From Patescibacteria group bacterium (lineage in GTDB: Bacteria; Patescibacteriota; Patescibacteriia; UM-FILTER-42-10): a DNA stretch of 48,637 nt. Below the pieces are notes generated by a model. It saw only the letters and a list, made by a program, of their open reading frames with translations. It had not been told where the DNA came from and searched no databases. Location of the stretch: assembly GCA_018825385.1 (NCBI GenBank), contig JAHJEX010000045.1, positions 1 to 48,637 on the forward strand, given 5' to 3'. A program made the translations under genes and the position numbers. This document shows, piece by piece, positions 14,069 through 44,650 of the stretch; position 1 is the stretch's first letter; every line of letters begins with the position of its first letter.

Positions 14069-14096
14069 TTGACAAAATGATCAAATAGCATATAGT
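14069..14096 (+). promoter_or_regulatory. Candidate sigma70 promoter (TTGACA-N16-TATAGT) facing the GC-rich leader and the half-size MFS gene
   Basis: TTGACA at 14069-14074, 16-nt spacer, TATAGT at 14091-14096. No ORF of 60 aa or more lies between it and 14536. Confidence 0.4.
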
Positions 14097-14344
14097 AGCC
14101 AATCGTAAGCAATTAAGTATTTGGAAGTGTTATCAGTAAAAATATATTTACAATGGAATAATTCTTGTAGATATTTTTGTCCAGGATATCCACTTTTTTT
14201 GTATTTAGCATTTAGACGGGAAGAATCGGAAGATTATAATATATATCTCGGTTCCCCTCTACTAAGATGTTTTATCTAAGGAGAGGCGTTATTTGAAAAC
14301 TTACTCATATCAAGTTTTTTCGTTTGAGCTACTTTCTGTTTTGA

Positions 14345-14491
14345 GTTTCAGCCATGCTGGCATCGCGGTCGTTCGCTTGGAAAGTACAACGTACAATCCG
14401 ATCGATAACTAGTTCCTTGACCCATCCGGGTCACCCGAGGATACAGAGAGGGCATTGCCCAGGCAATGTTCCCCTGCCCCTCGGTTTTTTT
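14345..14491 (+). promoter_or_regulatory. GC-rich structured leader (riboswitch/attenuator-like) ending in an intrinsic terminator, upstream of the half-size MFS gene
   Basis: Local GC is far above the flanks. Hairpins: GCCA-ugc-UGGC; CGGUCG...CGAUCG enclosing GUAC-aac-GUAC; GACCC-aucc-GGGUC. Then a long terminator. The ORFs on both strands here are Arg/Ser/Pro-rich junk. Confidence 0.5.
14435..14491 (+). terminator. Intrinsic terminator
   Basis: CCGAGG-auac-AGAGGG-CAUUGCC-ca-GGCAAUG-uu-CCCCU-gc-CCUCGG followed by UUUUUUU (14485-14491), 45 nt before the ATG at 14536. Confidence 0.75.
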
Positions 14492-14535
14492 ATTGATTTG
14501 ATATATACTATATATACAGCAATAATAGGAAAAAT

Positions 14536-15150
14536 ATGTTCTCACGATCCATTATTAGATCAATTGGCCATTACAAAATCAATGTAATAATTAAGGTACT
14601 AATTATTTCTGATTTTCTTATCTGGTCTTCTTATCAACTATTTGCACCAATTTTTGCAATTTTTGTAACAGATAAAATAGAAAATGGCTCTATAGAAATA
14701 GTCGGTATTGCTTCCGCAATATATTTGATCACCAAATCATTATGTGAGATTCCAGTAGGAATGAAGATTGATAAATCAAAATCAGAGAAAGATGATCTTT
14801 ATACTGCTGTGTTTGGAACAATTCTGACAGCAATTGCATATTTAACCTACATTGGAATAAATAGTATTCAGGAACTCTACCTAGTACAAGCATTGTTAGG
14901 AGTCGGATCGGCTTTTGCTTTCCCAGGTTGGTATTCAATATTTACGCGCCATGTTGACAGAGGGAAAGAAGCATATGAATGGAGCCTATACGATGTATTA
15001 CTAGGAATAGGAATGGCATTTGCTGCTGCTCTAGGTGGTTTTTTGGCAAACAGCTACGGTTTCAATACTTTGTTCATAATTATCGGAGTATCAACGTTTT
15101 TTGGTGCAATGCTATTATTAGCAATTAAAAAGAAAATATACAATAAATAA
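14536..15150 (+). CDS. Half-size (6-TM) MFS-like transporter
   Basis: 204 aa with six hydrophobic helices and MFS-like loop motifs. No N-terminal six-helix half is encoded upstream. Confidence 0.55.
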   Translation: MFSRSIIRSIGHYKINVIIKVLIISDFLIWSSYQLFAPIFAIFVTDKIENGSIEIVGIASAIYLITKSLCEIPVGMKIDKSKSEKDDLYTAVFGTILTAIAYLTYIGINSIQELYLVQALLGVGSAFAFPGWYSIFTRHVDRGKEAYEWSLYDVLLGIGMAFAAALGGFLANSYGFNTLFIIIGVSTFFGAMLLLAIKKKIYNK

Positions 15151-15243: not shown

Positions 15244-15600
15244 CTATGTTACTCCACTGGTATTTTCTAATACACTTAATGTAAAGATAACGATTGCCCA
15301 TGCCAACAGAATAATTACTAATCCGATAATTGCACCAGTCATCATTTTTTTTGCTTTCTCAACCCTTTCCTCACTTCCTCCACCTGCAGTAATAAATATG
15401 AATCCGGCATATAAAATCATTATAACTGCAACCAATCCAAGTAATCCCAACACCCATTGAATAATAGAAACAATCGTCTCCTGAAGGTCTGCTGATCCTA
15501 AACCTAGTGTATCTGAGGGATTATAAAAAGAAACAGCTAAAGTAAGTGCCGGCCAAAGCATAAACATAATTCCACTAATGGCACAAAGTGCTTTTTTCAT
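15244..15600 (-). CDS. TrbC/VirB2-like pilin-type small membrane protein
   Basis: 118 aa: signal peptide, then two long TM helices separated by AGGGSEERVEKAKK. This architecture is typical of VirB2-like T4SS pilins. Confidence 0.5.
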   Translation of the reverse strand: MKKALCAISGIMFMLWPALTLAVSFYNPSDTLGLGSADLQETIVSIIQWVLGLLGLVAVIMILYAGFIFITAGGGSEERVEKAKKMMTGAIIGLVIILLAWAIVIFTLSVLENTSGVT

Positions 15601-15629
15601 AATTCTTATATAAATGATTATTTGTAATA

Positions 15630-15638
15630 ATTATAGCA
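15630..15638 (-). promoter_or_regulatory. Extended -10 promoter element (TGcTATAAT) for the pilin-like gene
   Basis: Minus strand reads TGCTATAAT, 29 nt upstream of the ATG at 15600 and just downstream of the ncRNA terminator. Confidence 0.45.
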
Positions 15639-15650
15639 CTTGTGGAAAAT

Positions 15651-15917
15651 AAAAAAACCCCCTTTGTCTAGAAACAACGCAGGGGGCGGGCGAGGAGGCG
15701 GACGCGCGGTCCTTAACGATTGAAACAGCATGTCTCGAGGAGGGAAGAATTCCCATTGCCAGCAGACTGCCAGCGGAATCTCGATTAACCAACGGTTTTC
15801 ATCAACTTCTTCTTCTGCTTCTGACTTCTCGTCTTGCTCAACTTCATCGGACTAACCGGTGGCTGCTGTCTGGCGCAAGTGACCGCGCGCCGTACTGAAT
15901 CGCATATATATGTGCTG
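15651..15917 (-). ncRNA. Unclassified GC-rich structured RNA (about 265 nt) with its own promoter and terminator
   Basis: 11-12 bp long-range helix: GGCGCGCGGUC (from 15879-15892) pairs with GACCGCGCGUCC (from 15700-15712). 3' terminator CCCCCU-gcg-UUGU-uucuag-ACAA-AGGGGG + U7 (15651-15686). About 55% GC by hand count versus about 30% in flanks. No credible ORF. Confidence 0.6.
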
Positions 15918-15923
15918 ACTTTA

Positions 15924-15951
15924 ATGATACTATGCGTATAAAAATAGTCAA
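15924..15951 (-). promoter_or_regulatory. Sigma70-type promoter TTGACT-N16-TATCAT for the GC-rich RNA
   Basis: Minus strand: TTGACT (15946-15951), 16-nt spacer, TATCAT (15924-15929). Confidence 0.55.
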
Positions 15952-15991
15952 GAGAGCCGGCAATATTTCCCTTTTCTTAGTGAATTTATAC

Positions 15992-16024
15992 AAAAACCGC
16001 TCTTATGTAAGAAGCGGTTTTTTA
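15992..16024 (-). terminator. Bidirectional-looking intrinsic terminator after the RND gene
   Basis: ACCGCU-...-AGCGGU hairpin flanked by an A-run and a T-run, 20 nt after the RND stop at 16043. Confidence 0.7.
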
Positions 16025-16042
16025 TTTGGATACTATAGCAAT

Positions 16043-19000
16043 CTAGGCCGGTTGCTTTTTCCTTGTAAACAGCCTTACAAACGGTTTTTTTACTCTATCG
16101 GTGATGTAGATAAGGATAGGTAGCACAACCAGATTACCAATCGTAGAGAATATCAGTCCACCAATAATTGCAGTTCCCAGACCGGTCCAAAACGGATCAG
16201 CCATAGTTAGAGGAAGTACACCAGCAATGGTTGTGATAGATGTAGAGAAGATCGGCTTAAAGCGCACCTTGCCGGTATATACCAATGCTTCTGCAATCGA
16301 CCAATCTGGATTCTTCTTGCGTTGCCGGTTAAAGTAATCCACAAACACAATAGCATCATTCACCACAATTCCTACCAGCGCTATAATCCCCAATCCTGAA
16401 ATCATATCGATAGAGCTTCCTACTAAAAGCAAGCCAGGAAAAACACCAATCAAAGCCATAGGGATAGCCATAAGTATTAATGCCGGTTGAATGTAGGAAT
16501 TAAACTGGAACACTAGTATAAGGTAGACAGCAATTAGAGCAATGATAAATACATTCATCAGACTACTCATGTCACCTTCTATCTCCGAAGCAAATCCTCC
16601 ATAGCCCACCCCATCACTTTCTAGTCCAAGCGATTCTAGTTTTTCTGCTGAGAGATATTCTTTTATATCCGTCTCTAATTTTCCGGCAACTCCAGAGCGA
16701 TCATCTTCAGCTACATCCAGATCAATCTGATACATAATTGTTCGCTCACCATCTATAAAGTCAATAGACTCAGCCTCTTCTACTTTGCTGACTGTTGCGA
16801 TCTGATCCAGCGTTACCACTCCCCCTACCGCTGTAGGGATTAGCAGTTTTTCAAGCTTCTCTACAGAATTTGTTGATTCCTCACTAAAGGTCAAAACCAC
16901 ATCGTCCTGAACGCCATCTTCTCTCACAACAATCTTGGATATATCAGACTCGCTAAACACGCTATTAACTATCATGGAAGTTGTAAGTGGAGTAATTCCC
17001 AGTTGACGTACCTTGTCTTTGTCAAAGGAAATATCAACAGAAGGAACCAACTTATCTGTAATGTCGTTGGAAATTCTTTTAATCTCATATTCCCCTGCTT
17101 CACTTTTCCCACGAACAAACTTATCAACATCATCTACTGCGCTTTCTAGTATCCCGGCATCAGAGTTTTTTATTTCCAAGATAACATCATACATTGTTCC
17201 CGAAGGGCCGTAACTAATTGCATTAACACTAATGTAGGTTCCCTCTGGAGCTTTATCTCTTACATACTGAAGCTCATCGTCTATATCCTCAACAATAGTA
17301 TAAACAGTTGTTTCTTTATCGTCTGATCTTGCTCCTGGCTCAGTAATAAGTACCATATTTGTGTTATCAAAAATGTATGATCCTTCAAAATAAGGCACTT
17401 CAATCCCCTCTTTCACAATATCAGACATTATCTCTCTTCTGACATCCGTGGGCGTGCCAGCGGGATAGTTAACACTCACTGTAAAAGACCAAGTATCCGT
17501 AATTGGAAATTGTGATCCTGGTATCTTTCCACTCCCAGCAATCGCCAAACTACCACCCAAAGCCGCGACCAAAATAACTAAAATGGCTATTTTTAATGAC
17601 CATTTTCGGTGCACTTTTTCCATCAGTTTCCCGTATCCACTCACAACACTGTCAATCATTCTCTGACCATATAAAACAATAATAGGAATAATTAGCATTT
17701 TCTGCCAAGGACGCAGTTTTCTGTTTGCTCTTTCTTCTTCAGTTTCCTGTTTAAGGATCCATTTACCCAGTAGCGGAGTTATACTGATCGCTAGGAAATA
17801 AGACACTATCATCATTATAATAATAGTGTACGGAATATACTTCATAATTTCACCCATTATTCCACCCATGTTAGCGGCTGGAATAAATACCACAATCGTA
17901 GTAAGTGTTGCCGCTGTTACCGCTGGACCCAAATCACGAATAGCAAGCACTGCTGCTTTTGCTTTCGTCTCTCCGTACTTTTGTATCCGATGAACAATCC
18001 CTTCAGCTATAACAATAGCGTTATCCACTAAAATACCTAGCGTTAAGATCATAGCAAAAAGAGTCAGAGTATTTAGTGAATAACCAATCTGGTTCAGAAC
18101 AAACAAAGTAATAAGAAATGTGAAAGGAATTATCAAGCCAACAACTAATCCTATGCGTATATCAATAAAGAACATAAACACAATCAGAATAGCAATGAGT
18201 CCGATCAATCCATTTTTCAAAAGCGAATTTATTTGCGACTCTACTGAGATCGCAGAATCCATCACTAGATTTATGCTCATGCTTTCATCCAATATGCCTT
18301 TTTCATAAACATCCTCTAGCGCTACTTCAACATCATTTTTCAGCTGGATTATATCTCCATCATCAGTTTTGCCTACCATCAAATAAACAACTTCATCGTT
18401 GAACTTTGGCTCACCATTTTCTATATATCCAGCCATGGTCAAAGCATCAAAGTCAGAAGCTTGTCTTTTAACTTCTGCAATATCAGATAGTTTTACACCG
18501 GCAGACAAAACTATGTTTTTAATGTCATCAACACTGGTGCTTGGATTTTCTATGTTGATTTGGTTTGTTATTCCTGTTTCCTCATCTACTATGCTTCCTC
18601 CGGGCAAAAGAGATAAATTTGCTCCAACTGCACCTTTTACTGTCTGAACATCCATCCCTTTCTGAATCATTTTTACAGCATCCAGCTCAATCCGCACATC
18701 GAAATCAGAGCTAGGAGCAAGGTCAATATTTTTAATCTCATCTGAAGAGTTCTGAATGTATTCTTTCAGCTTCGGTGCTGCAGATAAAACATCATCAAGT
18801 GACTCAGTATCGCTAGAAAGTACATACGCCATAGATACTGACATTGCATCTTCTGTGAACACCCTGGTATCAACATTTTCCGGAAGGCTTAAAGCATCAA
18901 TTTGTTCCTTAAACTCTTTTATCGTCTCATTTATTACTGATTCATTAAACGATTTTATTTCAACCCAGGAAATACCATAGTTTGGATACGCAGTTGAGCG

Positions 19001-19285
19001 AATCCGCACAGTTTGTTCATGATTATTTACAGTATCCTCAATCGGACCCAATACTTCTGTAGCAATCGCTTCCGGTCCGGCACCAGGGTAAACGACTGAA
19101 ACAAATACAAAATTAAGTGGTACAGGAGGGAAATCCTGTCTCTGATTTTGATCCGTTGCCCAAAAACCCATGAGAATCATGGCAATCAGGAAGATAATAG
19201 TTATCTTATATTTACTAATAAAAAATCTTGACCATTTGGCAAGAAAGTTCAATTTCTCCTCTTTTTCTTTTTGGTAGTATTCCAT
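16043..19285 (-). CDS. RND-superfamily efflux permease (AcrB/AcrD/AcrF family)
   Basis: 1080 aa with 12-TM / two large loop topology and the conserved GIIALVGIVVNDAIVFVDY block. No adjacent membrane-fusion or outer-membrane partner gene. Confidence 0.9.
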   Translation of the reverse strand: MEYYQKEKEEKLNFLAKWSRFFISKYKITIIFLIAMILMGFWATDQNQRQDFPPVPLNFVFVSVVYPGAGPEAIATEVLGPIEDTVNNHEQTVRIRSTAYPNYGISWVEIKSFNESVINETIKEFKEQIDALSLPENVDTRVFTEDAMSVSMAYVLSSDTESLDDVLSAAPKLKEYIQNSSDEIKNIDLAPSSDFDVRIELDAVKMIQKGMDVQTVKGAVGANLSLLPGGSIVDEETGITNQINIENPSTSVDDIKNIVLSAGVKLSDIAEVKRQASDFDALTMAGYIENGEPKFNDEVVYLMVGKTDDGDIIQLKNDVEVALEDVYEKGILDESMSINLVMDSAISVESQINSLLKNGLIGLIAILIVFMFFIDIRIGLVVGLIIPFTFLITLFVLNQIGYSLNTLTLFAMILTLGILVDNAIVIAEGIVHRIQKYGETKAKAAVLAIRDLGPAVTAATLTTIVVFIPAANMGGIMGEIMKYIPYTIIIMMIVSYFLAISITPLLGKWILKQETEEERANRKLRPWQKMLIIPIIVLYGQRMIDSVVSGYGKLMEKVHRKWSLKIAILVILVAALGGSLAIAGSGKIPGSQFPITDTWSFTVSVNYPAGTPTDVRREIMSDIVKEGIEVPYFEGSYIFDNTNMVLITEPGARSDDKETTVYTIVEDIDDELQYVRDKAPEGTYISVNAISYGPSGTMYDVILEIKNSDAGILESAVDDVDKFVRGKSEAGEYEIKRISNDITDKLVPSVDISFDKDKVRQLGITPLTTSMIVNSVFSESDISKIVVREDGVQDDVVLTFSEESTNSVEKLEKLLIPTAVGGVVTLDQIATVSKVEEAESIDFIDGERTIMYQIDLDVAEDDRSGVAGKLETDIKEYLSAEKLESLGLESDGVGYGGFASEIEGDMSSLMNVFIIALIAVYLILVFQFNSYIQPALILMAIPMALIGVFPGLLLVGSSIDMISGLGIIALVGIVVNDAIVFVDYFNRQRKKNPDWSIAEALVYTGKVRFKPIFSTSITTIAGVLPLTMADPFWTGLGTAIIGGLIFSTIGNLVVLPILIYITDRVKKPFVRLFTRKKQPA

Positions 19286-19343
19286 AAGTATAGTTTTAAT
19301 TTGACCTAAATTAGGTAAAAAAATGGCTTAAAGCCATTTGTAA

Positions 19344-19371
19344 ATTCTAACAGATTTTTGCAATAATGCAA
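19344..19371 (-). promoter_or_regulatory. Possible promoter TTGCAT-N16-TAGAAT for the RND gene
   Basis: Minus strand: TTGCAT (19366-19371), 16-nt spacer, TAGAAT (19344-19349). The transcript would begin with hairpin AAUGGCU-uua-AGCCAUU + U7 (about 19319-19342). Confidence 0.3.
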
Positions 19372-19383
19372 CATTTGCAATAA

Positions 19384-19424
19384 AAAAACCACTTAGGACA
19401 GTAAGTGGTGGGCGGATATGTCCG
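19384..19424 (-). terminator. Terminator of the GC-rich 201-aa gene
   Basis: Minus strand: GGCGGA-caua-UCCGCC, then CCACUUA-cugucc-UAAGUGG followed by UUUUUUU. Confidence 0.7.
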
Positions 19425-19425
19425 C

Positions 19426-20031
19426 CTAGGAGAATGCGATGCCGGTCGCGCGGACCTGCTCGGCAATCCTCTGTTGGAGAAAAGCGGAAAACCGCTGGTA
19501 GATGACTCCCAGTATGTATTTTTCAAGAGTATCGTGCCTTGTTCTGTTCTGAACGGCAAACTGTTCCAGCGCCATTTGGAAGCGGGCATATTCCAGCATC
19601 AGGATCGGGTTGCCCGGGGAGGTTTCGTGCCACTCTCTTCCGTGGCCGATTATAGCCCGGATCGGAGTATTGACGAACCAGTAACCCATTACGTCCTGAT
19701 TGGGTGCTGAGTTGAGGATGAAGTCCGAAATGTTTTTTTTCCCAACACGCCCTGCCAAGAAATTGCTGGATAGATCTCTAAGCTCAATATTGATGCCGCC
19801 AGCATCAACAGGTTTTTCGAACGGTCTCCGAATGCTGTAACTGACGCCCCATACATCGTTAGGTTGTCCCTTGTTACGAGCCATTACACAGATGGTAGTT
19901 TTTCTCGCATGACAAAACACTCTTGGGGAGTCGTCCCTGCCTAAATGCTCGTGCGCCACACGAATAAACAGGATCTTGGTCGACATCTCCAGCACATCAC
20001 TGGGTTCGAATCTACTTCTCTTCAGCATCAC
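19426..20031 (-). CDS. Hypothetical protein in a GC-rich, SD-led cassette (likely foreign origin)
   Basis: 201-aa ORF with balanced composition. GGAGGA lies 6-9 nt upstream of GTG/ATG. Sample 60-mers count about 50-62% GC. The overlapping alternative-frame ORFs look spurious. No motif recognised. Confidence 0.7.
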   Translation of the reverse strand: MMLKRSRFEPSDVLEMSTKILFIRVAHEHLGRDDSPRVFCHARKTTICVMARNKGQPNDVWGVSYSIRRPFEKPVDAGGINIELRDLSSNFLAGRVGKKNISDFILNSAPNQDVMGYWFVNTPIRAIIGHGREWHETSPGNPILMLEYARFQMALEQFAVQNRTRHDTLEKYILGVIYQRFSAFLQQRIAEQVRATGIAFS

Positions 20032-20049
20032 AGTTCCTCCAATCGCCTA

Positions 20050-20061
20050 TGGGCATGCCCA
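20050..20061. promoter_or_regulatory. Perfect 12-bp palindrome TGGGCATGCCCA next to the RBS of the GC-rich gene (operator-like)
   Basis: Read directly. It is too short-looped to be a stable hairpin, so protein binding is more plausible. Flanked by two CCAATCAG direct repeats (20059-20066, 20114-20121). Confidence 0.35.
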
Positions 20062-20130
20062 ATCAGCTATGGAAAAGTACAAAACTCTAAAAGCCATTCA
20101 ACCTATGGAGATTCCAATCAGTTGTGACTT

Positions 20131-20163
20131 TTCGAATAAACCATACACTGTCCTGTATGGTTT
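20131..20163 (-). terminator. Terminator of the 22.5-20.2 kb operon
   Basis: Perfect 10-bp stem AAACCAUACA-ggacag-UGUAUGGUUU followed by AUU. Located 43 nt after the stop at 20206. Confidence 0.6.
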
Positions 20164-20205
20164 ATGACTTTATTATATTTTGTTTACATTGTCAACAATA
20201 CAGTA

Positions 20206-20937
20206 CTACTGATGCACGTCCATCCAGTTTTCTTCCATTACTACCCGGTCAAAATGTTTTTGCAGTTGCGGTGACACCTTTACATCATGCTTCACCTTTT
20301 GTACCCCCCATTCAAACGCCTCTAGAAATAAATACGGCTGAATATGAAACTGTACGCGAGCGATTCCGGACTCAATATCAAATTTTAACAGCTCCGGAGG
20401 AGAAACAATAGCTCCGGTATAGCCTTTTTCCACCATAGCAAATGTCACGTTAAAGTTGCGCACTTTGCCAAGTTGATCCCGGCTCATTATTCTATTCTTG
20501 ATAAAAGATTTGGCAAACTCTCTAAACATCGGAGCGCTGTCCGCTTTCAGCCGCATATATAACTGAAAATTGTTGTGTTCTATTCCGTTGCGCAAAAGCC
20601 GTGCCGCCGCATATTCCAAAGGCCTTAGCCCCATATAGTTTCTATAAAACAGAATATAATCACTGTATTTAACATAGTCTTTTCCGCTGGAAAGCATCGT
20701 CATTTTTTTCACTGCAATATGCGCCAGAAGAATCGCTGAAAAATATGGCATCTGATGAATCGGCGGATTTGGAAAAGTTATCAGCTTTCCGGTCAAAAGT
20801 AAAATCTGCCGGCGCAATAAATACAGCGGCGAATACGAAATAGGCAGATCAGTGCCGGCCGAATACAGCTTGGCATATTCTTCCTCCCCTTTCGTCGGGT
20901 CGAAAAAATACAGCGCTAATTTTTCTTGCAAATCCAT
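20206..20937 (-). CDS. Hypothetical protein with an RNxxxH (HEPN / Abi_2-like) motif
   Basis: 243 aa containing AARLLRNGIEHNNF (R-x4-H with Asn after Arg, as in many HEPN RNases). No other recognisable motif. Confidence 0.4.
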   Translation of the reverse strand: MDLQEKLALYFFDPTKGEEEYAKLYSAGTDLPISYSPLYLLRRQILLLTGKLITFPNPPIHQMPYFSAILLAHIAVKKMTMLSSGKDYVKYSDYILFYRNYMGLRPLEYAAARLLRNGIEHNNFQLYMRLKADSAPMFREFAKSFIKNRIMSRDQLGKVRNFNVTFAMVEKGYTGAIVSPPELLKFDIESGIARVQFHIQPYLFLEAFEWGVQKVKHDVKVSPQLQKHFDRVVMEENWMDVHQ

Positions 20938-22834: not shown

Positions 22835-23233
22835 CTAATCTTCCCGCCCTAATGAGTAAAAGCGAGGGGAATCATAAGTAGATAGTCTATTTATAATTTC
22901 AACAATTACGCCTTCTATATTTTCACAAACATCTTTATTCGAAAATCTTACAATTCTATTCCCGAACTTACTGATCCACTTACTCCTTGTCCTATCATAC
23001 TTTATTGCTTTTTCTTCGTAATGCGAATCCCCATCTACTTCTATAATAAATCTATGCTTTGGGCAATAAAAATCCACAATGTAATTTCCAATACTTACCT
23101 GCCTTCTAAATTTATATCCTTTCAATCTCTTATTTCTCAAGCGCTCCCATAGGACTTGCTCCGGATAAGTCATGTTTTTACGCAAATATCTTCTTCTGCG
23201 TTTTATTTGTGATCTATTATAAATCTTTGTCAT
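22835..23233 (-). CDS. DUF559 (Vsr-fold) endonuclease-domain protein
   Basis: 132 aa with YPEQVLWERLRNKRLKGYKFRRQVSIGNYIVDFYCPKHRFIIEVDGDSH, the typical DUF559 core. Confidence 0.8.
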   Translation of the reverse strand: MTKIYNRSQIKRRRRYLRKNMTYPEQVLWERLRNKRLKGYKFRRQVSIGNYIVDFYCPKHRFIIEVDGDSHYEEKAIKYDRTRSKWISKFGNRIVRFSNKDVCENIEGVIVEIINRLSTYDSPRFYSLGRED

Positions 23234-24573: not shown

Positions 24574-24807
24574 TTACCCACTAACTTTTGTCAAACCGCC
24601 ATCATAGTATAGAGATTGCTTACATTCTGGACAAACTACTATGATAGTTCTTTGGCTTCCAAGCCTATAGGGCAACAATTTGAAATCACCAGTGGAGGTA
24701 ATTATGAAATCACAACCACAGAAGCAGCGAATCTTACTACCAATCCATCCCGCAGGACTAGCGCGGTGATCTCTGCCTTTTTTCACTATTCTAGCCATTT
24801 TAATCAC
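24574..24807 (-). CDS. Small Cys-rich (zinc-ribbon-like) protein
   Basis: 77 aa with CFCGC ... CPEC cysteine pairs. No family recognised. Confidence 0.4.
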   Translation of the reverse strand: MIKMARIVKKGRDHRASPAGWIGSKIRCFCGCDFIITSTGDFKLLPYRLGSQRTIIVVCPECKQSLYYDGGLTKVSG

Positions 24808-24889
24808 CTCCTCTCAAAGAACGAGTTTTTGTTTTGTCTGCCACCTTATCACCATTATATTATCAAGTCAATATACCCACCAGGCAAAA

Positions 24890-25085
24890 ACCCCATTTCT
24901 GGGAAAAACAAACTGTCATTCTCGGGCTTGACCCGAGAATCTATGCCTGTTTATCCCCTCGACTATGGTTCTACTAGATCACCACTTACGCTCAGAAAAT
25001 ATTTCCTGAGCGAATCCCACCATGGCGGGATGAGTCGAAGGCTCCTTTGTAAATAGAAGCAGGCGATACGCCGGCGTATTGCCTG
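24890..25085. repeat. Mosaic of palindromic MITE-like modules
   Basis: ATTCTCGGG-cttga-CCCGAGAAT, CGCTCAG-aaaatatttc-CTGAGCG, GCAGGCGATACGCC-GGCGTATTGCCTGC. The same module types recur at 26.5, 29.3, 30.4, 32.9 and 48.2 kb. Confidence 0.75.
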
Positions 25086-25091
25086 CGCTTT

Positions 25092-26417
25092 TTATCCCCT
25101 TGCCTCTTTTATAAAATCACTTTGAAGCTTATTTACTTTCTTCTTCCCAAATTCCTTCAGTTCATCTGCATCACTTTGCGATCTGATTATAAATTCTCTG
25201 TTAAGTCCAACAACATCTTTATTCACCTCCAGTGCAGTATTGTTTATTCCGGTTAACTTTATTCCGGAAAGCGAACGCACTCTCGATAGAGCAACATACC
25301 CCATCCCCCGCTCAAAAGCCCGACTCAGATCTATCTCCGCCGTTTCCAAACTCATTCCCTGACTTTTATGAACACTAATCGCCCAGGCCAAGCGCAAAGG
25401 CACTTGCTCTACGCGCGCAATAGTTTCCCCCTCCTCCTCAATCCCCCAGCTTTCCGGTTCCGCTATTATCCGCTTGCCACTACTGGTCTCAATAATCGGC
25501 CAGCCTTCTTCCTTGCCAAAACCAACAACCTTGCCCAGCGTTCCGTTTACATATTCTTTGTTAAAATTGTTTTTGACAAACATAACCGAGGCTCCCAGCT
25601 TCAAAGTTATTTCCTCCGGTGCCAGACATCCTTTTTTCAAAGTTTCTACAACGTTTGGTGACCCTGTAGAATTCATTTCAAACTTCACCGGTTTACCAAT
25701 TAGTTTTGCCAATTCACGATTGTTTATCGCATCCACATCGGCATTGTGCGTATTCAGTTTTGTGGGAACTATTTCATCACCAATATCTACATTTAGTCGG
25801 GACATAAGAGTGCTTATCGTATCCGCTGTTACTTTGTCATCTCTAATATCATTCAATATCTTTGAAAACTCTTTGTCTGACTGCCTAAACTGTTCATCCA
25901 AATAACAAATCTTCAGATCCATTTCCTCCCAAACAGATGACTCCGTAGCAAACTTGTTTTCACCTTCATCAGAAGCTTTATTAATTGGTGGCAGTTGAAA
26001 GAAATCACCGGACAATATAATCTGCATCCCCCCAAACGGAATGTTCTGTTTCTTGCCCAATCGGCATATTTCATCCACCAGATCCAGCTGTCTGTGTCCT
26101 AACATAGATATCTCATCTATTATCAAAACTCTGGTACCGGCAATTCTCTTCTTGATGTGAGCTTTTCTCAGAACCTTCTTTATTTCAGGTTTAGTCATTT
26201 CTGAACTTATTCCCATCCCCGCCCAAGAATGAATAGTCCTGCCTTCCATATGGGTAGCCGCGATGCCGGTAGAAGCAGTAACACCCACCTCTACATTGCT
26301 TTTTCTCAAGTATTCTATATATTTGTTTAACAAAAAAGTTTTGCCACTCCCGGCAAATCCTGTTAGAAACACATTGTGTCCCATTTTCAATATATCCAGC
26401 GCGTCCGATTGCTTCAC
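25092..26417 (-). CDS. Pif1/RecD-like SF1 DNA helicase (AAA_30 + UvrD_C_2-like)
   Basis: Walker A GFAGSGKTF, Walker B LIIDEISML, C-terminal ISVHKSQGMSLE and YVALSRVRS. GTG start. Confidence 0.8.
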   Translation of the reverse strand: MKQSDALDILKMGHNVFLTGFAGSGKTFLLNKYIEYLRKSNVEVGVTASTGIAATHMEGRTIHSWAGMGISSEMTKPEIKKVLRKAHIKKRIAGTRVLIIDEISMLGHRQLDLVDEICRLGKKQNIPFGGMQIILSGDFFQLPPINKASDEGENKFATESSVWEEMDLKICYLDEQFRQSDKEFSKILNDIRDDKVTADTISTLMSRLNVDIGDEIVPTKLNTHNADVDAINNRELAKLIGKPVKFEMNSTGSPNVVETLKKGCLAPEEITLKLGASVMFVKNNFNKEYVNGTLGKVVGFGKEEGWPIIETSSGKRIIAEPESWGIEEEGETIARVEQVPLRLAWAISVHKSQGMSLETAEIDLSRAFERGMGYVALSRVRSLSGIKLTGINNTALEVNKDVVGLNREFIIRSQSDADELKEFGKKKVNKLQSDFIKEARG

Positions 26418-34555: not shown

Positions 34556-34584
34556 AACCCGCGATCATGTTGATGCAGGTTAAT
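34556..34584 (-). terminator. Terminator of GC-rich cassette d
   Basis: Minus strand CCUGCAUCA-aca-UGAU(c)GCGGG followed by UUUUUUU. Confidence 0.65.
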
Positions 34585-34585
34585 G

Positions 34586-34675
34586 TCAGCCGAAGCCAAC
34601 CGCCAAAGCAATAATGGCAAAAAGTGCAAGGATTCCCAGCGTTACAACGCCAATGATTTTGGCTATGCGGTTCAT
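34586..34675 (-). CDS. 29-aa hydrophobic peptide (type I toxin-like / small membrane protein)
   Basis: Own translation: MNRIAKIIGVVTLGILALFAIIALAVGFG*. Preceded by GAAGGTGG 7 nt upstream. Below the 60-aa cutoff of the ORF track. Confidence 0.45.
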   Translation of the reverse strand: MNRIAKIIGVVTLGILALFAIIALAVGFG

Positions 34676-34813
34676 GAGCCACCACCTTCTAATTTAGGAA
34701 AGAAAAATACCCTTCCTATTTCCACCCTAACACCATATTTACCATTCATCAAGAGAAGAAAAAAACTCCCAAATCTGCCGAAACAAATGGGAGGGAGCGG
34801 AACGCTCGAAAGA

Positions 34814-35353
34814 TCAGTGTTGGCCGCGACGATCGATGGGATGCCCAAACGGCATTGTGCTGCCCTTGCAGGCTTGGGGATCATCGGTGCGGATGCCGAA
34901 CGGCATGGTGCTTTCCATGATGACCATACTGCCGTCATCGAGAAGATCAAAGAGCGAGATGCCAGACCGCACTTCCTCGATCGGAAACTTGACCGCTTGC
35001 CACCCGTTGCGGATGGCAATGGTGCCGTCGTAGCAATCGAAGAAAACCTCCAGGTACTTCCAGAAGAGCTCTCTGATCGCGTCAAGCCGATTGTCCAGAT
35101 GCTCCATCTCGGAGGTGAACTGACAATCCGTTCTGTGACCGCGTCCCGTCGCTGGACACGCAGTATGGTGTTCTGCGTGGAGCTCTTCCATCTTTCGGAC
35201 GAGTACCATTTGGACCATGAATAGCTTCTGCAGTTCATCGGGAATCGGCCCGAGTACCTCTTCATCGCCACCGGCTTCCTTGTCAGGTAGCTGGCGGTCA
35301 TCTTCAGTGATCTCCTGCTGGAGATCGAGAATCCATTGCGGAATTGGAAGCAT
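34814..35353 (-). CDS. Hypothetical protein of GC-rich cassette d
   Basis: Of three overlapping long ORFs, only this frame has protein-like composition. The ATG at 35351-35353 is preceded by AAAGGAA. The track start (GTG at 35431) lies inside the predicted promoter. Confidence 0.6.
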   Translation of the reverse strand: MLPIPQWILDLQQEITEDDRQLPDKEAGGDEEVLGPIPDELQKLFMVQMVLVRKMEELHAEHHTACPATGRGHRTDCQFTSEMEHLDNRLDAIRELFWKYLEVFFDCYDGTIAIRNGWQAVKFPIEEVRSGISLFDLLDDGSMVIMESTMPFGIRTDDPQACKGSTMPFGHPIDRRGQH

Positions 35354-35421
35354 CGCCGTTCCTTTCGCTTGTAGTAACAAGATGTACTGCGAAATGACTT
35401 CTTTCTGCAGAAGTTCGAACA

Positions 35422-35450
35422 ACCTTAGCACGTGTTTGCAGGTTTGTCAA
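35422..35450 (-). promoter_or_regulatory. Promoter TTGACA-N17-TAAGGT of cassette d
   Basis: Minus strand: TTGACA (35445-35450), 17-nt spacer, TAAGGT (35422-35427). Confidence 0.45.
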
Positions 35451-38922: not shown

Positions 38923-39405
38923 TCATTGGGGAGCGATGCGGATCTTATTGATCTCTGCTACCAAACTGTTGCCGCGTTCGATCCTCACGTTGCCGACCAC
39001 CATAGCAGAGTGGTGCTTGGTAATTTCTGCAATCACCGTCACATTATCTGGTGGATCAACAGCCTGCCGAAAAGTGACGTTACCGAAACCGCGGAAAAAC
39101 GGGATGATCGGAGCGGTTTCCTGATCCACATTTTGCCACGTCGGGCCGTATGCCACTACCCCCAGCATTTGTGCGGCCAGTTCGACCAACAGCACTCCGG
39201 GGAAAACCGGGTTACCGGGGAAATGGCCTTCGCAGTGGCCCCTCCTGACTGCAAAACCGGTCATTCCGCCAGTCGGACGTCCGTCCTCATCCAACGCGAC
39301 AATGACGGGATTTTGAAGCAGGAACCAGCGGCCGGTGTGCGGTAACATCTGCGAAATCTGGAGGAACGGTACTGTACAGGATCCTGTCCGCAATTTTTCT
39401 GCCAT
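38923..39405 (-). CDS. FabZ/FabA-like hotdog-fold (3R)-hydroxyacyl-ACP dehydratase homolog in GC-rich cassette e
   Basis: LPHTGRWFLL (compare LPHRYPFLLVD) and GHFPGNPVFPGVLLVELAAQ (the FabZ active-site block HFPxxPVxPGVL..E..AQ). AAGGA SD present. Confidence 0.75.
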   Translation of the reverse strand: MAEKLRTGSCTVPFLQISQMLPHTGRWFLLQNPVIVALDEDGRPTGGMTGFAVRRGHCEGHFPGNPVFPGVLLVELAAQMLGVVAYGPTWQNVDQETAPIIPFFRGFGNVTFRQAVDPPDNVTVIAEITKHHSAMVVGNVRIERGNSLVAEINKIRIAPQ

Positions 39406-43162: not shown

Positions 43163-44308
43163 TTATCGAAGAACCTGAAAATCCGCGCAGTTTTCTGTTG
43201 CCCAGTTAATATAGTCACTGGAACATATCCAACTGCGCTCTTTTGGAATAATCGGCATGCAGTTTACGCTTGCCATACAATCATATTCACCTTCTTCTGG
43301 CATTTCGGTTACTTTTGTATTTGTATTATTATTCGCTTCAGTTGATTCCACTGTGCCGGAATATTGTTTAATTTTTCCTGAACCGGAAATACTTTGGGAG
43401 AGATTGGGTGAACCAATGTATTGAACCTCGCCACTTCCGCTGATAGTTATATCCAGTTCTTCTGAAGCGTTCAATACCCCTTCGCCGGAACCGCTGACCT
43501 TTATACTGGCTGTTTTTGAAACAAGGTTTTTTGCGTTATAGTCTCCCGAACCGCTAATTATTATGTCTTGATCAGTTGCTTCTCCAGAAAGTAAAAATTC
43601 TCCGGACCCTGAAATATTTATGTCTAGATTTTCCACATCCAATACCATATCCGCTTTTCCACTTCCGCTGATTTGAATTGCAAAGTCATCTGCTTCCAGA
43701 CTGTTAGAATTAATTTCTCCTGAACCGGAAATCCCCACATGTTTTAAATCATCAACTGTCAGATTGTAGGTGATTTTTCTCGTAGGCCAGATTGTCCAGA
43801 AAAACCATGGATTTTTTAATCGCAACATCAAAGTATTATTTTCAACAACAGTTTCAATATATTCCATCACATTATCTTCTGCTTCAACCTCTAAAGACTC
43901 CTCTCCGGATTGAACGATGTTTAGAACACCAGTTCCACTTATTTGCACCTGGTTAAAGTTAGAGATTTCGCGATTTTCTGAAATTAAATTACCAGAACCC
44001 CTACCAAATGCATACGAAGAGGCAAAAAGTAAGATTATTAAAACGCCTATAACTGATACTGCTATTCGCCAAAACGATGATTTTTTCTTTTCAGTTGCTG
44101 ACTTGTTTTCGCCCGCTTCTGATGATTCTTCCTCCTCTGGATGCAGTCCCACAGTCCTTAGTATTGGGAACCCTACTATCCATATTACTAAAGCAATAAT
44201 CACGCCCACCAATACATCATAAACACTGGTAATAGCACCAATAATTATAGCGATTACGGCAATTCCGTTTAATATGGACTTTATACCCTTTTTTTGGTCA
44301 TTGGTCAT
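43163..44308 (-). CDS. Membrane-anchored DUF2807-like (beta-helical GIN-domain) protein with a Cys-rich C-terminus
   Basis: Repeated ISGSG..... units (nine or more). Two N-terminal TMs. C-terminal CMASVNCMP...C..........C. Confidence 0.6.
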   Translation of the reverse strand: MTNDQKKGIKSILNGIAVIAIIIGAITSVYDVLVGVIIALVIWIVGFPILRTVGLHPEEEESSEAGENKSATEKKKSSFWRIAVSVIGVLIILLFASSYAFGRGSGNLISENREISNFNQVQISGTGVLNIVQSGEESLEVEAEDNVMEYIETVVENNTLMLRLKNPWFFWTIWPTRKITYNLTVDDLKHVGISGSGEINSNSLEADDFAIQISGSGKADMVLDVENLDINISGSGEFLLSGEATDQDIIISGSGDYNAKNLVSKTASIKVSGSGEGVLNASEELDITISGSGEVQYIGSPNLSQSISGSGKIKQYSGTVESTEANNNTNTKVTEMPEEGEYDCMASVNCMPIIPKERSWICSSDYINWATENCADFQVLR

Positions 44309-44369: not shown

Positions 44370-44650
44370 AAAAAAAATAACCCCCGCCCCATCTCACAAA
44401 CTGAAACGGTTTGGGGGCCGAGATGCGCTACAACAACCAGAGACGGTGGAACCTTGCGAGACGCCGCCGGAATACGTCCAGCGATGCTGTGGTGCCGGAA
44501 TCGATACCGGTCTATGCAGCGGTGCGGACGGCTATCCGCCGGCTAGGTTCGCGAGTCAGAACGAGGTTCTGGGCCCACATGGTGGGTTCCTCGCCTAATC
44601 AGCCAATCAGCTGGTGTTGAGCCACATCTCTATCCTAATCAGAAGCTAAA
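44370..44650 (-). ncRNA. Unclassified GC-rich structured RNA (about 280 nt); orientation inferred from the terminator
   Basis: About 58-62% GC in 44401-44520 by hand count, versus about 32% in 44281-44340. All three plus frames are open with Arg-rich junk. Hairpins: CCCAC-cau-GUGGG, GAAC-cuc-GUUC, GCGGA-uagccg-UCCGC, CCGG-uaucgauu-CCGG, CAGC-auc-GCUG, CAUCUC...GAGAUG. Ends GGGGCGGGGGUUAUUUUUUUU. Possible promoter TTGCCA-N15-(TGg)TGTAAT at 44656-44682. Confidence 0.5.

What the first reader, a model, noticed from the sequence alone, without database searches (positions are those of the whole stretch)
15651..15951. Stand-alone about 265-nt GC-rich structured RNA with its own promoter and terminator; no family match by eye
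Seen in the sequence, on the minus strand:
- Promoter TTGACT-N16-TATCAT.
- An 11-12 bp closing helix (GGCGCGCGGUC / GACCGCGCGUCC) that brings together positions about 15890 and about 15705 and encloses about 165 nt.
- Two CCUCCUCG (anti-SD-like) boxes.
- A bulged terminator hairpin plus U7.
- The downstream pilin-like gene has its own TGcTATAAT element, so this looks like an independent RNA gene rather than only a leader.

I checked for, and did not find, the following signatures: the tmRNA tRNA-like 3' end, the RNase P GGAAAGUCC / ACAGAA..GGCUUA boxes, the SRP GGAA-tetraloop helix 8, and the cobalamin B12 box. Only short partial resemblances were seen. The only ORF is a 20-codon Lys-rich one.
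Basis: partly seen in the sequence, partly recalled or inferred. Interest (0 to 1): 0.66.

Follow-up and report, generated by a model that had tools for sequence, protein, structure and literature searches.

The report
Orphan candidate small RNA gene
A GC-rich stretch of about 265 bases with a plausible promoter and terminator sits between an efflux-pump gene and a pilin gene of an uncultured Patescibacteria bacterium, but it matches no known RNA family, is seen only in this one species and is absent from the same site in the closest relative, so it is at best an unproven lineage-specific small RNA.

Summary
- the promoter-like TTGACT-N16-TATCAT;
- the 9-12 bp GC closing helix;
- two CCUCCUCG boxes;
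- a bulged terminator followed by U7;
- the pilin gene's own TGcTATAAT.

Rfam (4227 models) and ARAGORN give no hit.

The case for a structured RNA family did not strengthen.
- Predicted stability is only moderately unusual. The register-optimised core ranks 10th of 242 same-size minus-strand windows in this contig.
- Promoter-like matches of this quality are common (36 in the window against 28 in shuffles).
- No homologue was found downstream of RND-pump (AcrB) orthologues or upstream of pilin orthologues.
- Seed scans of GTDB species genomes, JGI metagenomes and IMG/VR found none. Phage and plasmid BLAST and a covariance-model search of 101 kb of held DNA also found none.
- All copies come from one species and are about identical, so covariation cannot be tested.

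The closest relative has the flanking 243-aa gene and the pilin gene only 70 nt apart. The RNA therefore lies at the edge of a ~4.6 kb lineage-specific segment (200-aa ORF + RND pump + RNA).

Best reading: an orphan stand-alone sRNA transcription unit. A non-functional remnant is nearly as likely.

The parts
15993..16026 (-). Intrinsic terminator of the upstream RND (AcrB-family) gene. It is the upstream boundary of the unit.
   Evidence: Perfect 10-bp inverted repeat AAAAACCGCT/AGCGGTTTTT. Sequence read.
15924..15951 (-). Sigma-70-like promoter TTGACT-N16-TATCAT. The predicted transcription start is near 15917.
   Evidence: Promoter scan, 10 of 12 positions. Such matches are common in the window, 36 against 28 in shuffles. 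The start site is inferred, not shown.
15651..15917 (-). Predicted non-coding transcript of about 265 nt.
   Evidence: Bounded by the promoter and the terminator. No expression data are available.
15875..15892 (-). P1 closing helix, 5' strand.
   Evidence: MFE and ensemble fold, pairing probability about 1. The 9-bp perfect core is listed.
15699..15717 (-). P1 closing helix, 3' strand.
15758..15874 (-). P2, a long imperfect hairpin. The lower ~16 bp are GC-rich. The upper part is purine-rich and weakly paired, with apex AGAAGAAGAAG.
   Evidence: In contig L002 the SNP C15865U changes a C-G pair to U-G, which is a single event.
15742..15754 (-). P3 mini-hairpin GGGAA-UUC-UUCCC.
15722..15736 (-). 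P4 mini-hairpin GAGACA-UGC-UGUUUC.
15736..15743 (-). CCUCCUCG box 1. Its UCCUC core is the unpaired linker between P3 and P4.
   Evidence: Pattern search. Unpaired probabilities 0.9-1.0 at 15741-15737.
15691..15698 (-). CCUCCUCG box 2, between P1 and the terminator, partly unpaired.
15651..15687 (-). Intrinsic terminator: GCCCCCU..AGGGGGU stem with a bulge, then U7.
   Evidence: -15.2 kcal/mol.
15785..15847 (-). 20-codon Lys-rich ORF (MKLSKTRSQKQKKKLMKTVG). It is probably not translated.
   Evidence: No SD upstream, it sits inside P2, there is no Pfam hit and no protein relative in any frame.
15630..15638 (-). Extended -10 element TGCTATAAT of the pilin gene's own promoter.
   Evidence: The pilin-proximal ~45 nt align with relative L008, which lacks the RNA.
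15244..15600 (-). Downstream gene: T4SS_pilin (PF18895) family protein, 118 aa.
   Evidence: Pfam E = 4e-14. NCBIfam gives a pilin-like conjugal transfer protein.
15645..20205 (-). Lineage-specific ~4.6 kb segment absent from relative L008. It holds a GC-rich 200-aa ORF, the RND pump gene and the RNA.
   Evidence: L008 has the 243-aa gene (76% identical) only 70 nt from the pilin gene (82% identical).

Best explanation
The region is an orphan, lineage-specific, stand-alone transcription unit in a Patescibacteria (CPR, Kerfeldbacteria-like) genome.

Proposed working:
- A sigma-70-type promoter drives a non-coding RNA of about 265 nt, which ends at its own intrinsic terminator just before the pilin gene's separate promoter.
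- The RNA is predicted to fold into a four-way junction. P1 is the closing helix, P2 is a long hairpin with a floppy purine-rich tip, and P3 and P4 are two mini-hairpins. A C-rich single-stranded tail follows.
- The most likely mode of action is a trans-acting base-pairing regulator. It would use its exposed C/U-rich stretches, the two CCUCCUCG boxes, to pair with G-rich sites such as the GGAGG ribosome-binding sites of the minority of genes that have them.

What is shown: the sequence signals, the predicted fold, the strand asymmetry, the absence of any known family, and the position at the edge of a 4.6-kb segment missing from the closest relative.

What is inferred: transcription, stability, any function, and the seed.
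For: - The promoter, the non-coding body and the strong terminator are all on the minus strand, directly after the upstream gene's own terminator.
- The intergenic gap is 442 nt in a compact genome.
- GC is 0.53 against about 0.38 for the flanks.
- The minus strand folds better than the plus strand. The core z-score is -3.1 against -2.0, with 0 of 300 shuffles as stable.
- P1, lower P2, P3, P4 and the terminator are well defined in the ensemble. The box 1 core is unpaired and box 2 is partly unpaired.
- Two of the window's three CCTCCTCG copies lie 45 nt apart here, against 0.47 expected for the whole window.
- No protein relative exists in any of the six frames among 5.8 billion proteins at E <= 10. 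The mini-ORF has no SD.
- The pilin gene keeps its own promoter region in L008 without the RNA, so the RNA is not an obligatory pilin leader.
- The region is retained about unchanged in independent assemblies from several samples.
Against: - No homologue was found anywhere outside the species, so there is no conservation or covariation evidence.
- The folding z-score ranks only 10th of 242 windows although its register was optimised.
- Promoter-like matches are frequent.
- The best predicted target is the SD region of the 200-aa gene at -27.7 kcal/mol. That is only about the 1st percentile of all 45-nt windows, which is expected when 48 start regions are tested.
- Only about 8 of 48 genes have an SD-like motif.
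- The contig carries other GC-rich islands, coding and non-coding. High GC here may therefore mark acquired DNA rather than RNA structure.
- There are no expression data.
Confidence: 0.42

Rival explanations
1. Non-functional remnant. A GC-rich scrap of acquired or decayed DNA was left at the junction of the 4.6-kb accessory segment. Its promoter-like and terminator-like signals are either relics of a lost gene or fortuitous.
For: - It lies exactly at the pilin-side edge of a segment absent from the closest relative.
- The other edge of that segment is also GC-rich, the 200-aa ORF with no family.
- Several further GC-rich islands occur in the window, and relative L008 has one at a different site.
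- No conservation was seen beyond the species.
- The folding z-score is unexceptional.
- Promoter-like sites are common.
Against: - No trace of protein similarity exists in any frame.
- The terminator is strong and correctly placed, and the promoter has the right strand and distance.
- The minus strand folds clearly better than the plus strand.
- Compact CPR genomes usually purge useless DNA. This last point is established knowledge and was not tested here.
Confidence: 0.35
2. Cis-acting leader (riboswitch- or attenuator-like). Transcription from the upstream promoter either stops at the terminator or reads through into the pilin gene, depending on a ligand or factor bound by the P1-enclosed four-way junction.
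For: The order promoter, P1-closed multi-stem domain, short linker, intrinsic terminator and then a same-strand gene 50 nt downstream is the classic architecture. Two other GC-rich terminated elements sit upstream of same-strand genes in this window.
Against: - The pilin gene has its own extended -10 element between the terminator and the ATG.
- That proximal region is conserved in L008, which lacks the element.
- Pilin orthologues and paralogues in other relatives have unrelated upstream regions.
- No alternative antiterminator pairing was evident on inspection of the sequence.
- No riboswitch family matches.
Confidence: 0.13
3. It is a small-protein gene, either the 20-aa Lys-rich peptide or one of the 41-53-aa ORFs, or a type I toxin-like mRNA.
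For: ORFs exist in the region. The start of the mini-ORF is buried in a long hairpin, as in some type I toxin mRNAs.
Against: - There is no SD before any of the ORFs.
- The 20-aa peptide is hydrophilic, not membrane-active.
- There is no Pfam hit.
- There are no relatives in 5.8 billion proteins.
Confidence: 0.05
4. It is a highly divergent housekeeping RNA (6S, SRP, RNase P or tmRNA) that the standard models miss.
For: It is a stand-alone, GC-rich, roughly rod-like RNA of about 200-265 nt. 6S RNAs are notoriously hard to detect by sequence (established knowledge).
Against: - No Rfam hit even at E <= 10 on a 601-nt query.
- ARAGORN finds nothing.
- There is no single-stranded 5' side of a central bubble. 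The 5' strand 15879-15856 is almost fully paired.
- It is absent from the relatives' syntenic loci.
- It lies inside an accessory segment, which is unusual for a core RNA.
Confidence: 0.03

Closest known systems
Orphan (species-specific) trans-acting sRNAs with C-rich seeds, e.g. the Staphylococcus aureus Rsa RNAs and RsaE/RoxS, whose unpaired UCCC/C-rich motifs pair with SD regions (PMC2790875 appeared in the search list; the mechanism is from my own knowledge)
   Same: It is a stand-alone unit with its own promoter and intrinsic terminator. It is GC-richer than an AT-rich genome. It has C-rich motifs predicted to be unpaired in linkers or the 3' tail.
   Different: The Rsa RNAs are expressed, conserved across species and have validated targets. 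Here there are no expression data, no homologues and no target complementarity beyond chance. This RNA is also longer and more elaborately folded.
GC-rich long intergenic regions used as predictors of structured ncRNAs in AT-rich genomes (the GC-IGR / DIMPL approach; PMC8723152, PMC11109978, PMC6429828 were listed)
   Same: It is a 442-nt intergenic region with 53% GC in a ~38% GC genome. That is exactly the kind of outlier such pipelines flag.
   Different: Those pipelines only name a motif after finding multiple representatives with covariation. This one has a single representative.
Transcription-terminating riboswitches and leaders
   Same: It has a P1-closed multi-helix junction followed by an intrinsic terminator upstream of a same-strand gene.
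   Different: A separate promoter lies between the terminator and the gene. The element is absent upstream of the orthologous pilin gene. No Rfam family matches.
6S RNA (Rfam RF00013)
   Same: Similar size, its own transcription unit, and 5' and 3' ends paired into a closing stem.
   Different: It has no central bubble with an open 5' strand, no model match and no conservation.

Membership tests
Any Rfam 15 family (4227 models, including 6S, SRP, RNase P, tmRNA, riboswitches, T-box, OLE/GOLLD/ROOL/raiA) | Covariance-model score at or above the family's gathering threshold | tested here: not met
   There are 0 gathering-level hits in the whole window. On 15500-16100 at E <= 10 there were only chance-level hits. 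The best was E = 0.82, and it lies on the neighbouring AcrB terminator.
tmRNA / tRNA-like | tRNA-like acceptor and T-arm, plus a tag reading frame | tested here: not met
   ARAGORN finds no tRNA or tmRNA in the window.
6S RNA | Long rod with a large central bubble whose 5' strand is single-stranded | tested here: not met
   In the MFE and ensemble folds the 5' strand 15892-15856 is almost completely paired. All 40 unpaired or mini-hairpin nucleotides are on the 3' side.
6S RNA | Conserved as a core gene in related genomes | tested here: inconclusive
   No relative was found. Whole genomes of relatives could not be scanned.
Riboswitch / transcription-attenuation leader | Lies in the 5' UTR of the regulated gene and is conserved upstream of its orthologues | tested here: not met
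   The pilin gene's own TGCTATAAT lies after the terminator. The orthologous pilin gene in L008 and the paralogues in L009-L018 lack the element.
Riboswitch / transcription-attenuation leader | Mutually exclusive terminator and antiterminator pairings | tested here: inconclusive
   No convincing alternative pairing was seen on inspection of the sequence and the ensemble. This was not a formal test.
Trans-acting base-pairing sRNA | Own promoter and Rho-independent terminator in an intergenic region | tested here: met
   Sequence-level signals only.
Trans-acting base-pairing sRNA | Accessible seed with target complementarity beyond chance | tested here: not met
   The seeds are accessible. The best start-region duplex of -27.7 kcal/mol is about the 1st percentile of all windows, which is expected for 48 tests. 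Only 48 kb of the genome was available.
Trans-acting base-pairing sRNA | Detectable transcript | not testable with these tools
   No transcriptome data are accessible.
MITE / repeated palindromic element | Multiple copies, terminal inverted repeats and target-site duplication | tested here: not met
   There is a 9-bp inverted repeat. There is only a single copy in the window and the loci, none in the collections, and no flanking direct repeat.
Retron msr-msd RNA (plus-strand reading gives the order closing repeat, small hairpins, long hairpin) | Adjacent reverse-transcriptase gene on the same strand | tested here: not met
   The neighbours are an RND pump, a pilin, an MFS protein, an ECF sigma factor and an ABC/FtsX pair. 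The promoter and terminator are on the minus strand.
Small protein / type I toxin | Translatable ORF with a ribosome-binding site, and conserved or hydrophobic peptide | tested here: not met
   No SD, a hydrophilic Lys-rich 20-mer and no relatives in any frame.

The most novel reading that the evidence does not exclude
This genome largely lacks Shine-Dalgarno sequences. In it, an accessory sRNA that arrived with the RND-pump segment might display two copies of the 16S-like anti-SD core (CCUCCU). It could use them to silence specifically the minority of SD-led, GC-rich (apparently acquired) genes. The 200-aa gene at the other end of the same 4.6-kb segment is an example. Its GGCGAUUGGAGG start region can pair with box 2 (CCUCCUCGCC).
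Probability: 0.06. Interest if true: 0.6.

Novelty: new member of a known kind. Interest (0 to 1): 0.24.

Why it matters
If it is transcribed and functional, it would be one of very few candidate regulatory RNAs described in Candidate Phyla Radiation bacteria, whose RNA biology is almost unexplored. It would also show an sRNA travelling with an accessory efflux-pump segment. On present evidence it is a single-species candidate without conservation, covariation or expression data. That is the commonest and least informative class of GC-rich intergenic outlier, so its practical value is as a low-priority target for metatranscriptome mapping.

Tried and rejected
1. Synteny through the RND pump. 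Orthologues at 60-69% identity (L005-L007) have only 12-110 nt downstream and different neighbours.
2. Synteny through the pilin gene. Homologues at 66-82% identity (L008-L018) have unrelated upstream regions: a small antisense ORF, or AT-rich promoter/SD regions.
3. Collection scans with a translated frame of the RNA as query, which acts as spaced DNA seeds.
   - The first query was probably saturated at 600 candidates by low-complexity seeds in the genome and metagenome collections, though not in the viral collection (417 candidates).
   - A second, chimeric query without low-complexity seeds gave 499 and 529 candidates and none confirmed.
   - Caveats: the seeds need about 24 nt of near-identity. 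Not even the window's own sequence was returned, so this species is not in those collections.
4. A concatenated six-frame translation against 5.8 billion proteins gave nothing at E <= 10.
5. blastn against phage and plasmid collections gave nothing.
6. blastn and nhmmer searches, plus a covariance model (R1), were run on the window and the relatives' loci. The model search covered 101 kb. Only the self-match appeared.
7. Same-species contigs for covariation. One contig differs, by 8 SNPs and 1 indel in 6.4 kb. Only one SNP lies in the RNA (C-G to U-G), plus one U fewer in the U-tract.
8. Target prediction with the C-rich boxes was not above background.
9. Similarity to the two other GC-rich non-coding islands in the window: none.
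10. The 6S, SRP, RNase P, tmRNA, retron, MITE and leader-peptide readings were rejected, as set out in the membership table.
11. Literature searches for CPR ncRNAs, 6S or riboswitches found nothing relevant.

Full report
**Organism and setting**

The window is a contig of an uncultured Patescibacteria (CPR) bacterium. The pilin protein encoded at 15244-15600 occurs with identical sequence on NCBI MAG contigs (GCA_018813665.1 JAHJBG010000006.1 and GCA_043815985.1), and on ENA and Logan contigs. Its relatives are mostly annotated Patescibacteria or Candidatus Kerfeldbacteria.

The finding lies in a 442-nt intergenic gap (15601-16042). All the genes below are on the minus strand except the MFS gene.
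- Upstream: a 1080-aa RND/AcrB-family pump gene (16043-19285).
- Downstream: a 118-aa T4SS_pilin gene (15244-15600).
- Further downstream: a half-size MFS gene (plus strand), an ECF-type sigma factor with a membrane protein, and an ABC/FtsX pair.

**Checking the observation**

- TTGACT-N16-TATCAT at 15951-15924.
- A perfect 9-bp inverted repeat CGCGCGGUC/GACCGCGCG at 15889-15881 and 15711-15703. It extends to 12-17 bp with bulges and encloses 169 nt.
- CCUCCUCG at 15743-15736 and 15698-15691.
- A bulged terminator at 15687-15657, followed by U7.
- TGCTATAAT at 15638-15630, before the pilin gene.
- The 20-codon Lys-rich ORF at 15847-15785.

GC reaches 0.53 against 0.35-0.40 in the flanks. The upstream RND gene has its own hairpin terminator at 16026-15993, so the unit is insulated on both sides.

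One detail needs correcting. Three further mechanical ORFs of 41-53 aa overlap the region.

**Predicted structure**

The minimum-free-energy and ensemble folds agree on a four-way junction.
- P1: 15892-15875 paired with 15717-15699.
- P2: a long hairpin at 15874-15758. Its lower 16 bp are GC-rich. Its upper half is purine-rich and poorly paired.
- P3 (15754-15742) and P4 (15736-15722): two mini-hairpins.
- After P1 come a C-rich linker and the terminator.

Box 1 supplies the unpaired UCCUC linker between P3 and P4. Box 2 is partly unpaired between P1 and the terminator.

**Is it more than chance?**

Partly.
- The P1-enclosed core has z = -3.1, with 0 of 300 dinucleotide shuffles as stable. The plus strand has z = -2.0, which fits an RNA read from the minus strand.
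- The full RNA has z of about -2.0 to -2.2.
- I also scanned the whole contig's minus strand in 194-nt windows, with one window placed exactly on the core.
  - The background was mean -0.54, sd 1.53.
  - The core ranked 10th of 242, even though its register had been optimised.
- Promoter-like matches at 10/12 or better occur 36 times in the window against 28 in shuffles.
- CCTCCTCG occurs 3 times against 0.47 expected, and two of the copies are here. The local C-richness inflates that comparison.

**Known families**

- Rfam 15 gives no gathering-level hit anywhere in the window.
- A sensitive scan of 15500-16100 gives only chance hits. The best lies on the neighbouring terminator.
- ARAGORN finds nothing.
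- The fold lacks the open 5' strand of a 6S central bubble.
- No reverse transcriptase, transposase or CRISPR feature is nearby.

**Search for relatives**

- RND-pump orthologues at 60-69% identity sit in entirely different neighbourhoods, with 12-110 nt downstream.
- Pilin homologues at 66-82% identity have unrelated upstream regions.
- Sequence searches of the window and the loci held at the time found only the self-copies. A covariance-model search of 101 kb gave the same result.
- Phage and plasmid collections gave nothing.
- For the big collections I used translated frames of the RNA as spaced seeds.
  - A first query was probably swamped by low-complexity seeds.
  - A cleaner chimeric query gave 499 candidates in GTDB species genomes and 529 in JGI metagenomes. 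None was confirmed.
  - IMG/VR was also negative.
  - These seeds only catch close relatives, and the species itself is evidently not in those collections.
- A concatenated six-frame translation found no protein at E <= 10 among 5.8 billion. That argues against a recognisable decayed gene or a conserved small protein.
- All available copies belong to one species. One contig differs by 8 SNPs and 1 indel in 6.4 kb, and the RNA carries a single SNP (C15865U, C-G to U-G). Covariation therefore cannot be assessed.

**The most informative comparison**

Contig L008 (Logan SRR32414324) encodes a 243-aa protein 76% identical to window gene 20206-20937. It is followed after only 70 nt by a pilin gene 82% identical to ours. 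The last ~45 nt before the pilin ATG are alignable between the two. Nothing further upstream is.

Relative to this closest available genome, window positions ~15645-20205 form a 4.6-kb lineage-specific segment. It consists of a GC-rich 200-aa ORF of no known family, the RND pump gene, and the candidate RNA at the pilin-side edge.

Two conclusions follow.
- The pilin gene has its own promoter and does not need the element. This favours a stand-alone RNA over a leader.
- The element is accessory, not a core RNA.

The contig carries several other GC-rich islands, both coding and non-coding, and L008 has one at a different site. High GC here may therefore mark acquired DNA as much as RNA structure.

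**Mechanism**

The best-supported reading is an orphan stand-alone sRNA (confidence about 0.4). Its most plausible working parts are the exposed C/U-rich boxes. That step is weak, for three reasons.
- Only about 8 of 48 genes in the window have an SD-like motif. This count is rough and uses longest-ORF starts.
- The best predicted partner is the SD region of the 200-aa gene in the same segment, at -27.7 kcal/mol.
- That value is no better than the 1st percentile of all 45-nt windows.

The rivals are these.
- A non-functional remnant at an insertion junction (about 0.35).
- A cis-acting terminator-type leader of the pilin gene (about 0.13).
- A small-protein gene (about 0.05).
- A divergent housekeeping RNA (about 0.03).

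**Verdict**

The claim of a novel structured RNA remains unproven. It is an ordinary, low-priority orphan sRNA candidate.

Noticed in passing
window 44380-44640 (-): A second GC-rich (up to 62%) non-coding island ends in a strong terminator (GGCCCCC...GGGGGUU plus a U-run). TGTATAAT follows, then a DUF2807 adhesin-like gene (43163-44308). There is no Rfam hit and no similarity to the finding.
   Followed up: partly
window 14069-14494 (+): TTGACA-N16-TATAGT (11/12) is followed by a leader of about 385 nt whose 3' half is GC-rich. It ends in the terminator CCGAGG...CCTCGG plus U7, about 40 nt before a half-size MFS transporter gene (14536-15150). This is a riboswitch-like leader candidate with no Rfam hit.
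   Followed up: partly
window 24880-25100 (-): A cluster of five near-perfect hairpins in a 609-nt intergenic region. It was the most stable window of the whole contig in my scan (z = -8.9). A promoter-like site follows, then a small Cys-rich ORF with a strong SD (GAGAGGAGGUGA) starting at about 24797.
   Followed up: partly
window 15645-20205 versus L008 1931-2001: The 200-aa ORF, the RND pump and the RNA form a 4.6-kb indel relative to the closest relative contig. RND orthologues in other relatives sit in different neighbourhoods each time, which suggests the pump gene is mobile or accessory in this lineage.
   Followed up: yes
whole window (48 gene starts): Only about 8 of 48 genes have a GGAG/GAGG/AGGA motif at -22 to -3. 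The clear SDs seen (GGAGG or GGGGAGGAC) include the GC-rich 200-aa gene (19426-20028) and the DUF559 gene (22835-23233), plus two small ORFs starting near 24797 and 39596. The count is rough because it relies on longest-ORF starts.
   Followed up: partly
window 20059, 20114, 22760, 44595, 44603, 44635 (-): The motif CTGATTRG occurs 8 times against 3.4 expected. It is clustered upstream of the 200-aa gene, where it appears twice as CTGATTGG-N8-CCATAGG, and in the 5' part of the 44.4-kb GC-rich island. It may be a regulator-binding site.
   Followed up: partly
window 34600-35430; 19426-20031; 38923-39405; L008 1-1150: These are GC-rich (48-62%) islands in a ~38% GC genome. One has three long overlapping ORFs on both strands and no Pfam hit (34583-35431). 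One encodes a FabA-like protein. The relative L008 has its own island at another site. They look like horizontally acquired DNA.
   Followed up: partly
L009 1720-1905 (-): Upstream of a pilin homologue in a relative, the intergenic region holds an uncalled ~50-codon ORF on the opposite strand with a good SD (GGAGCACGCC-ATG). It is unrelated to the finding.
   Followed up: no
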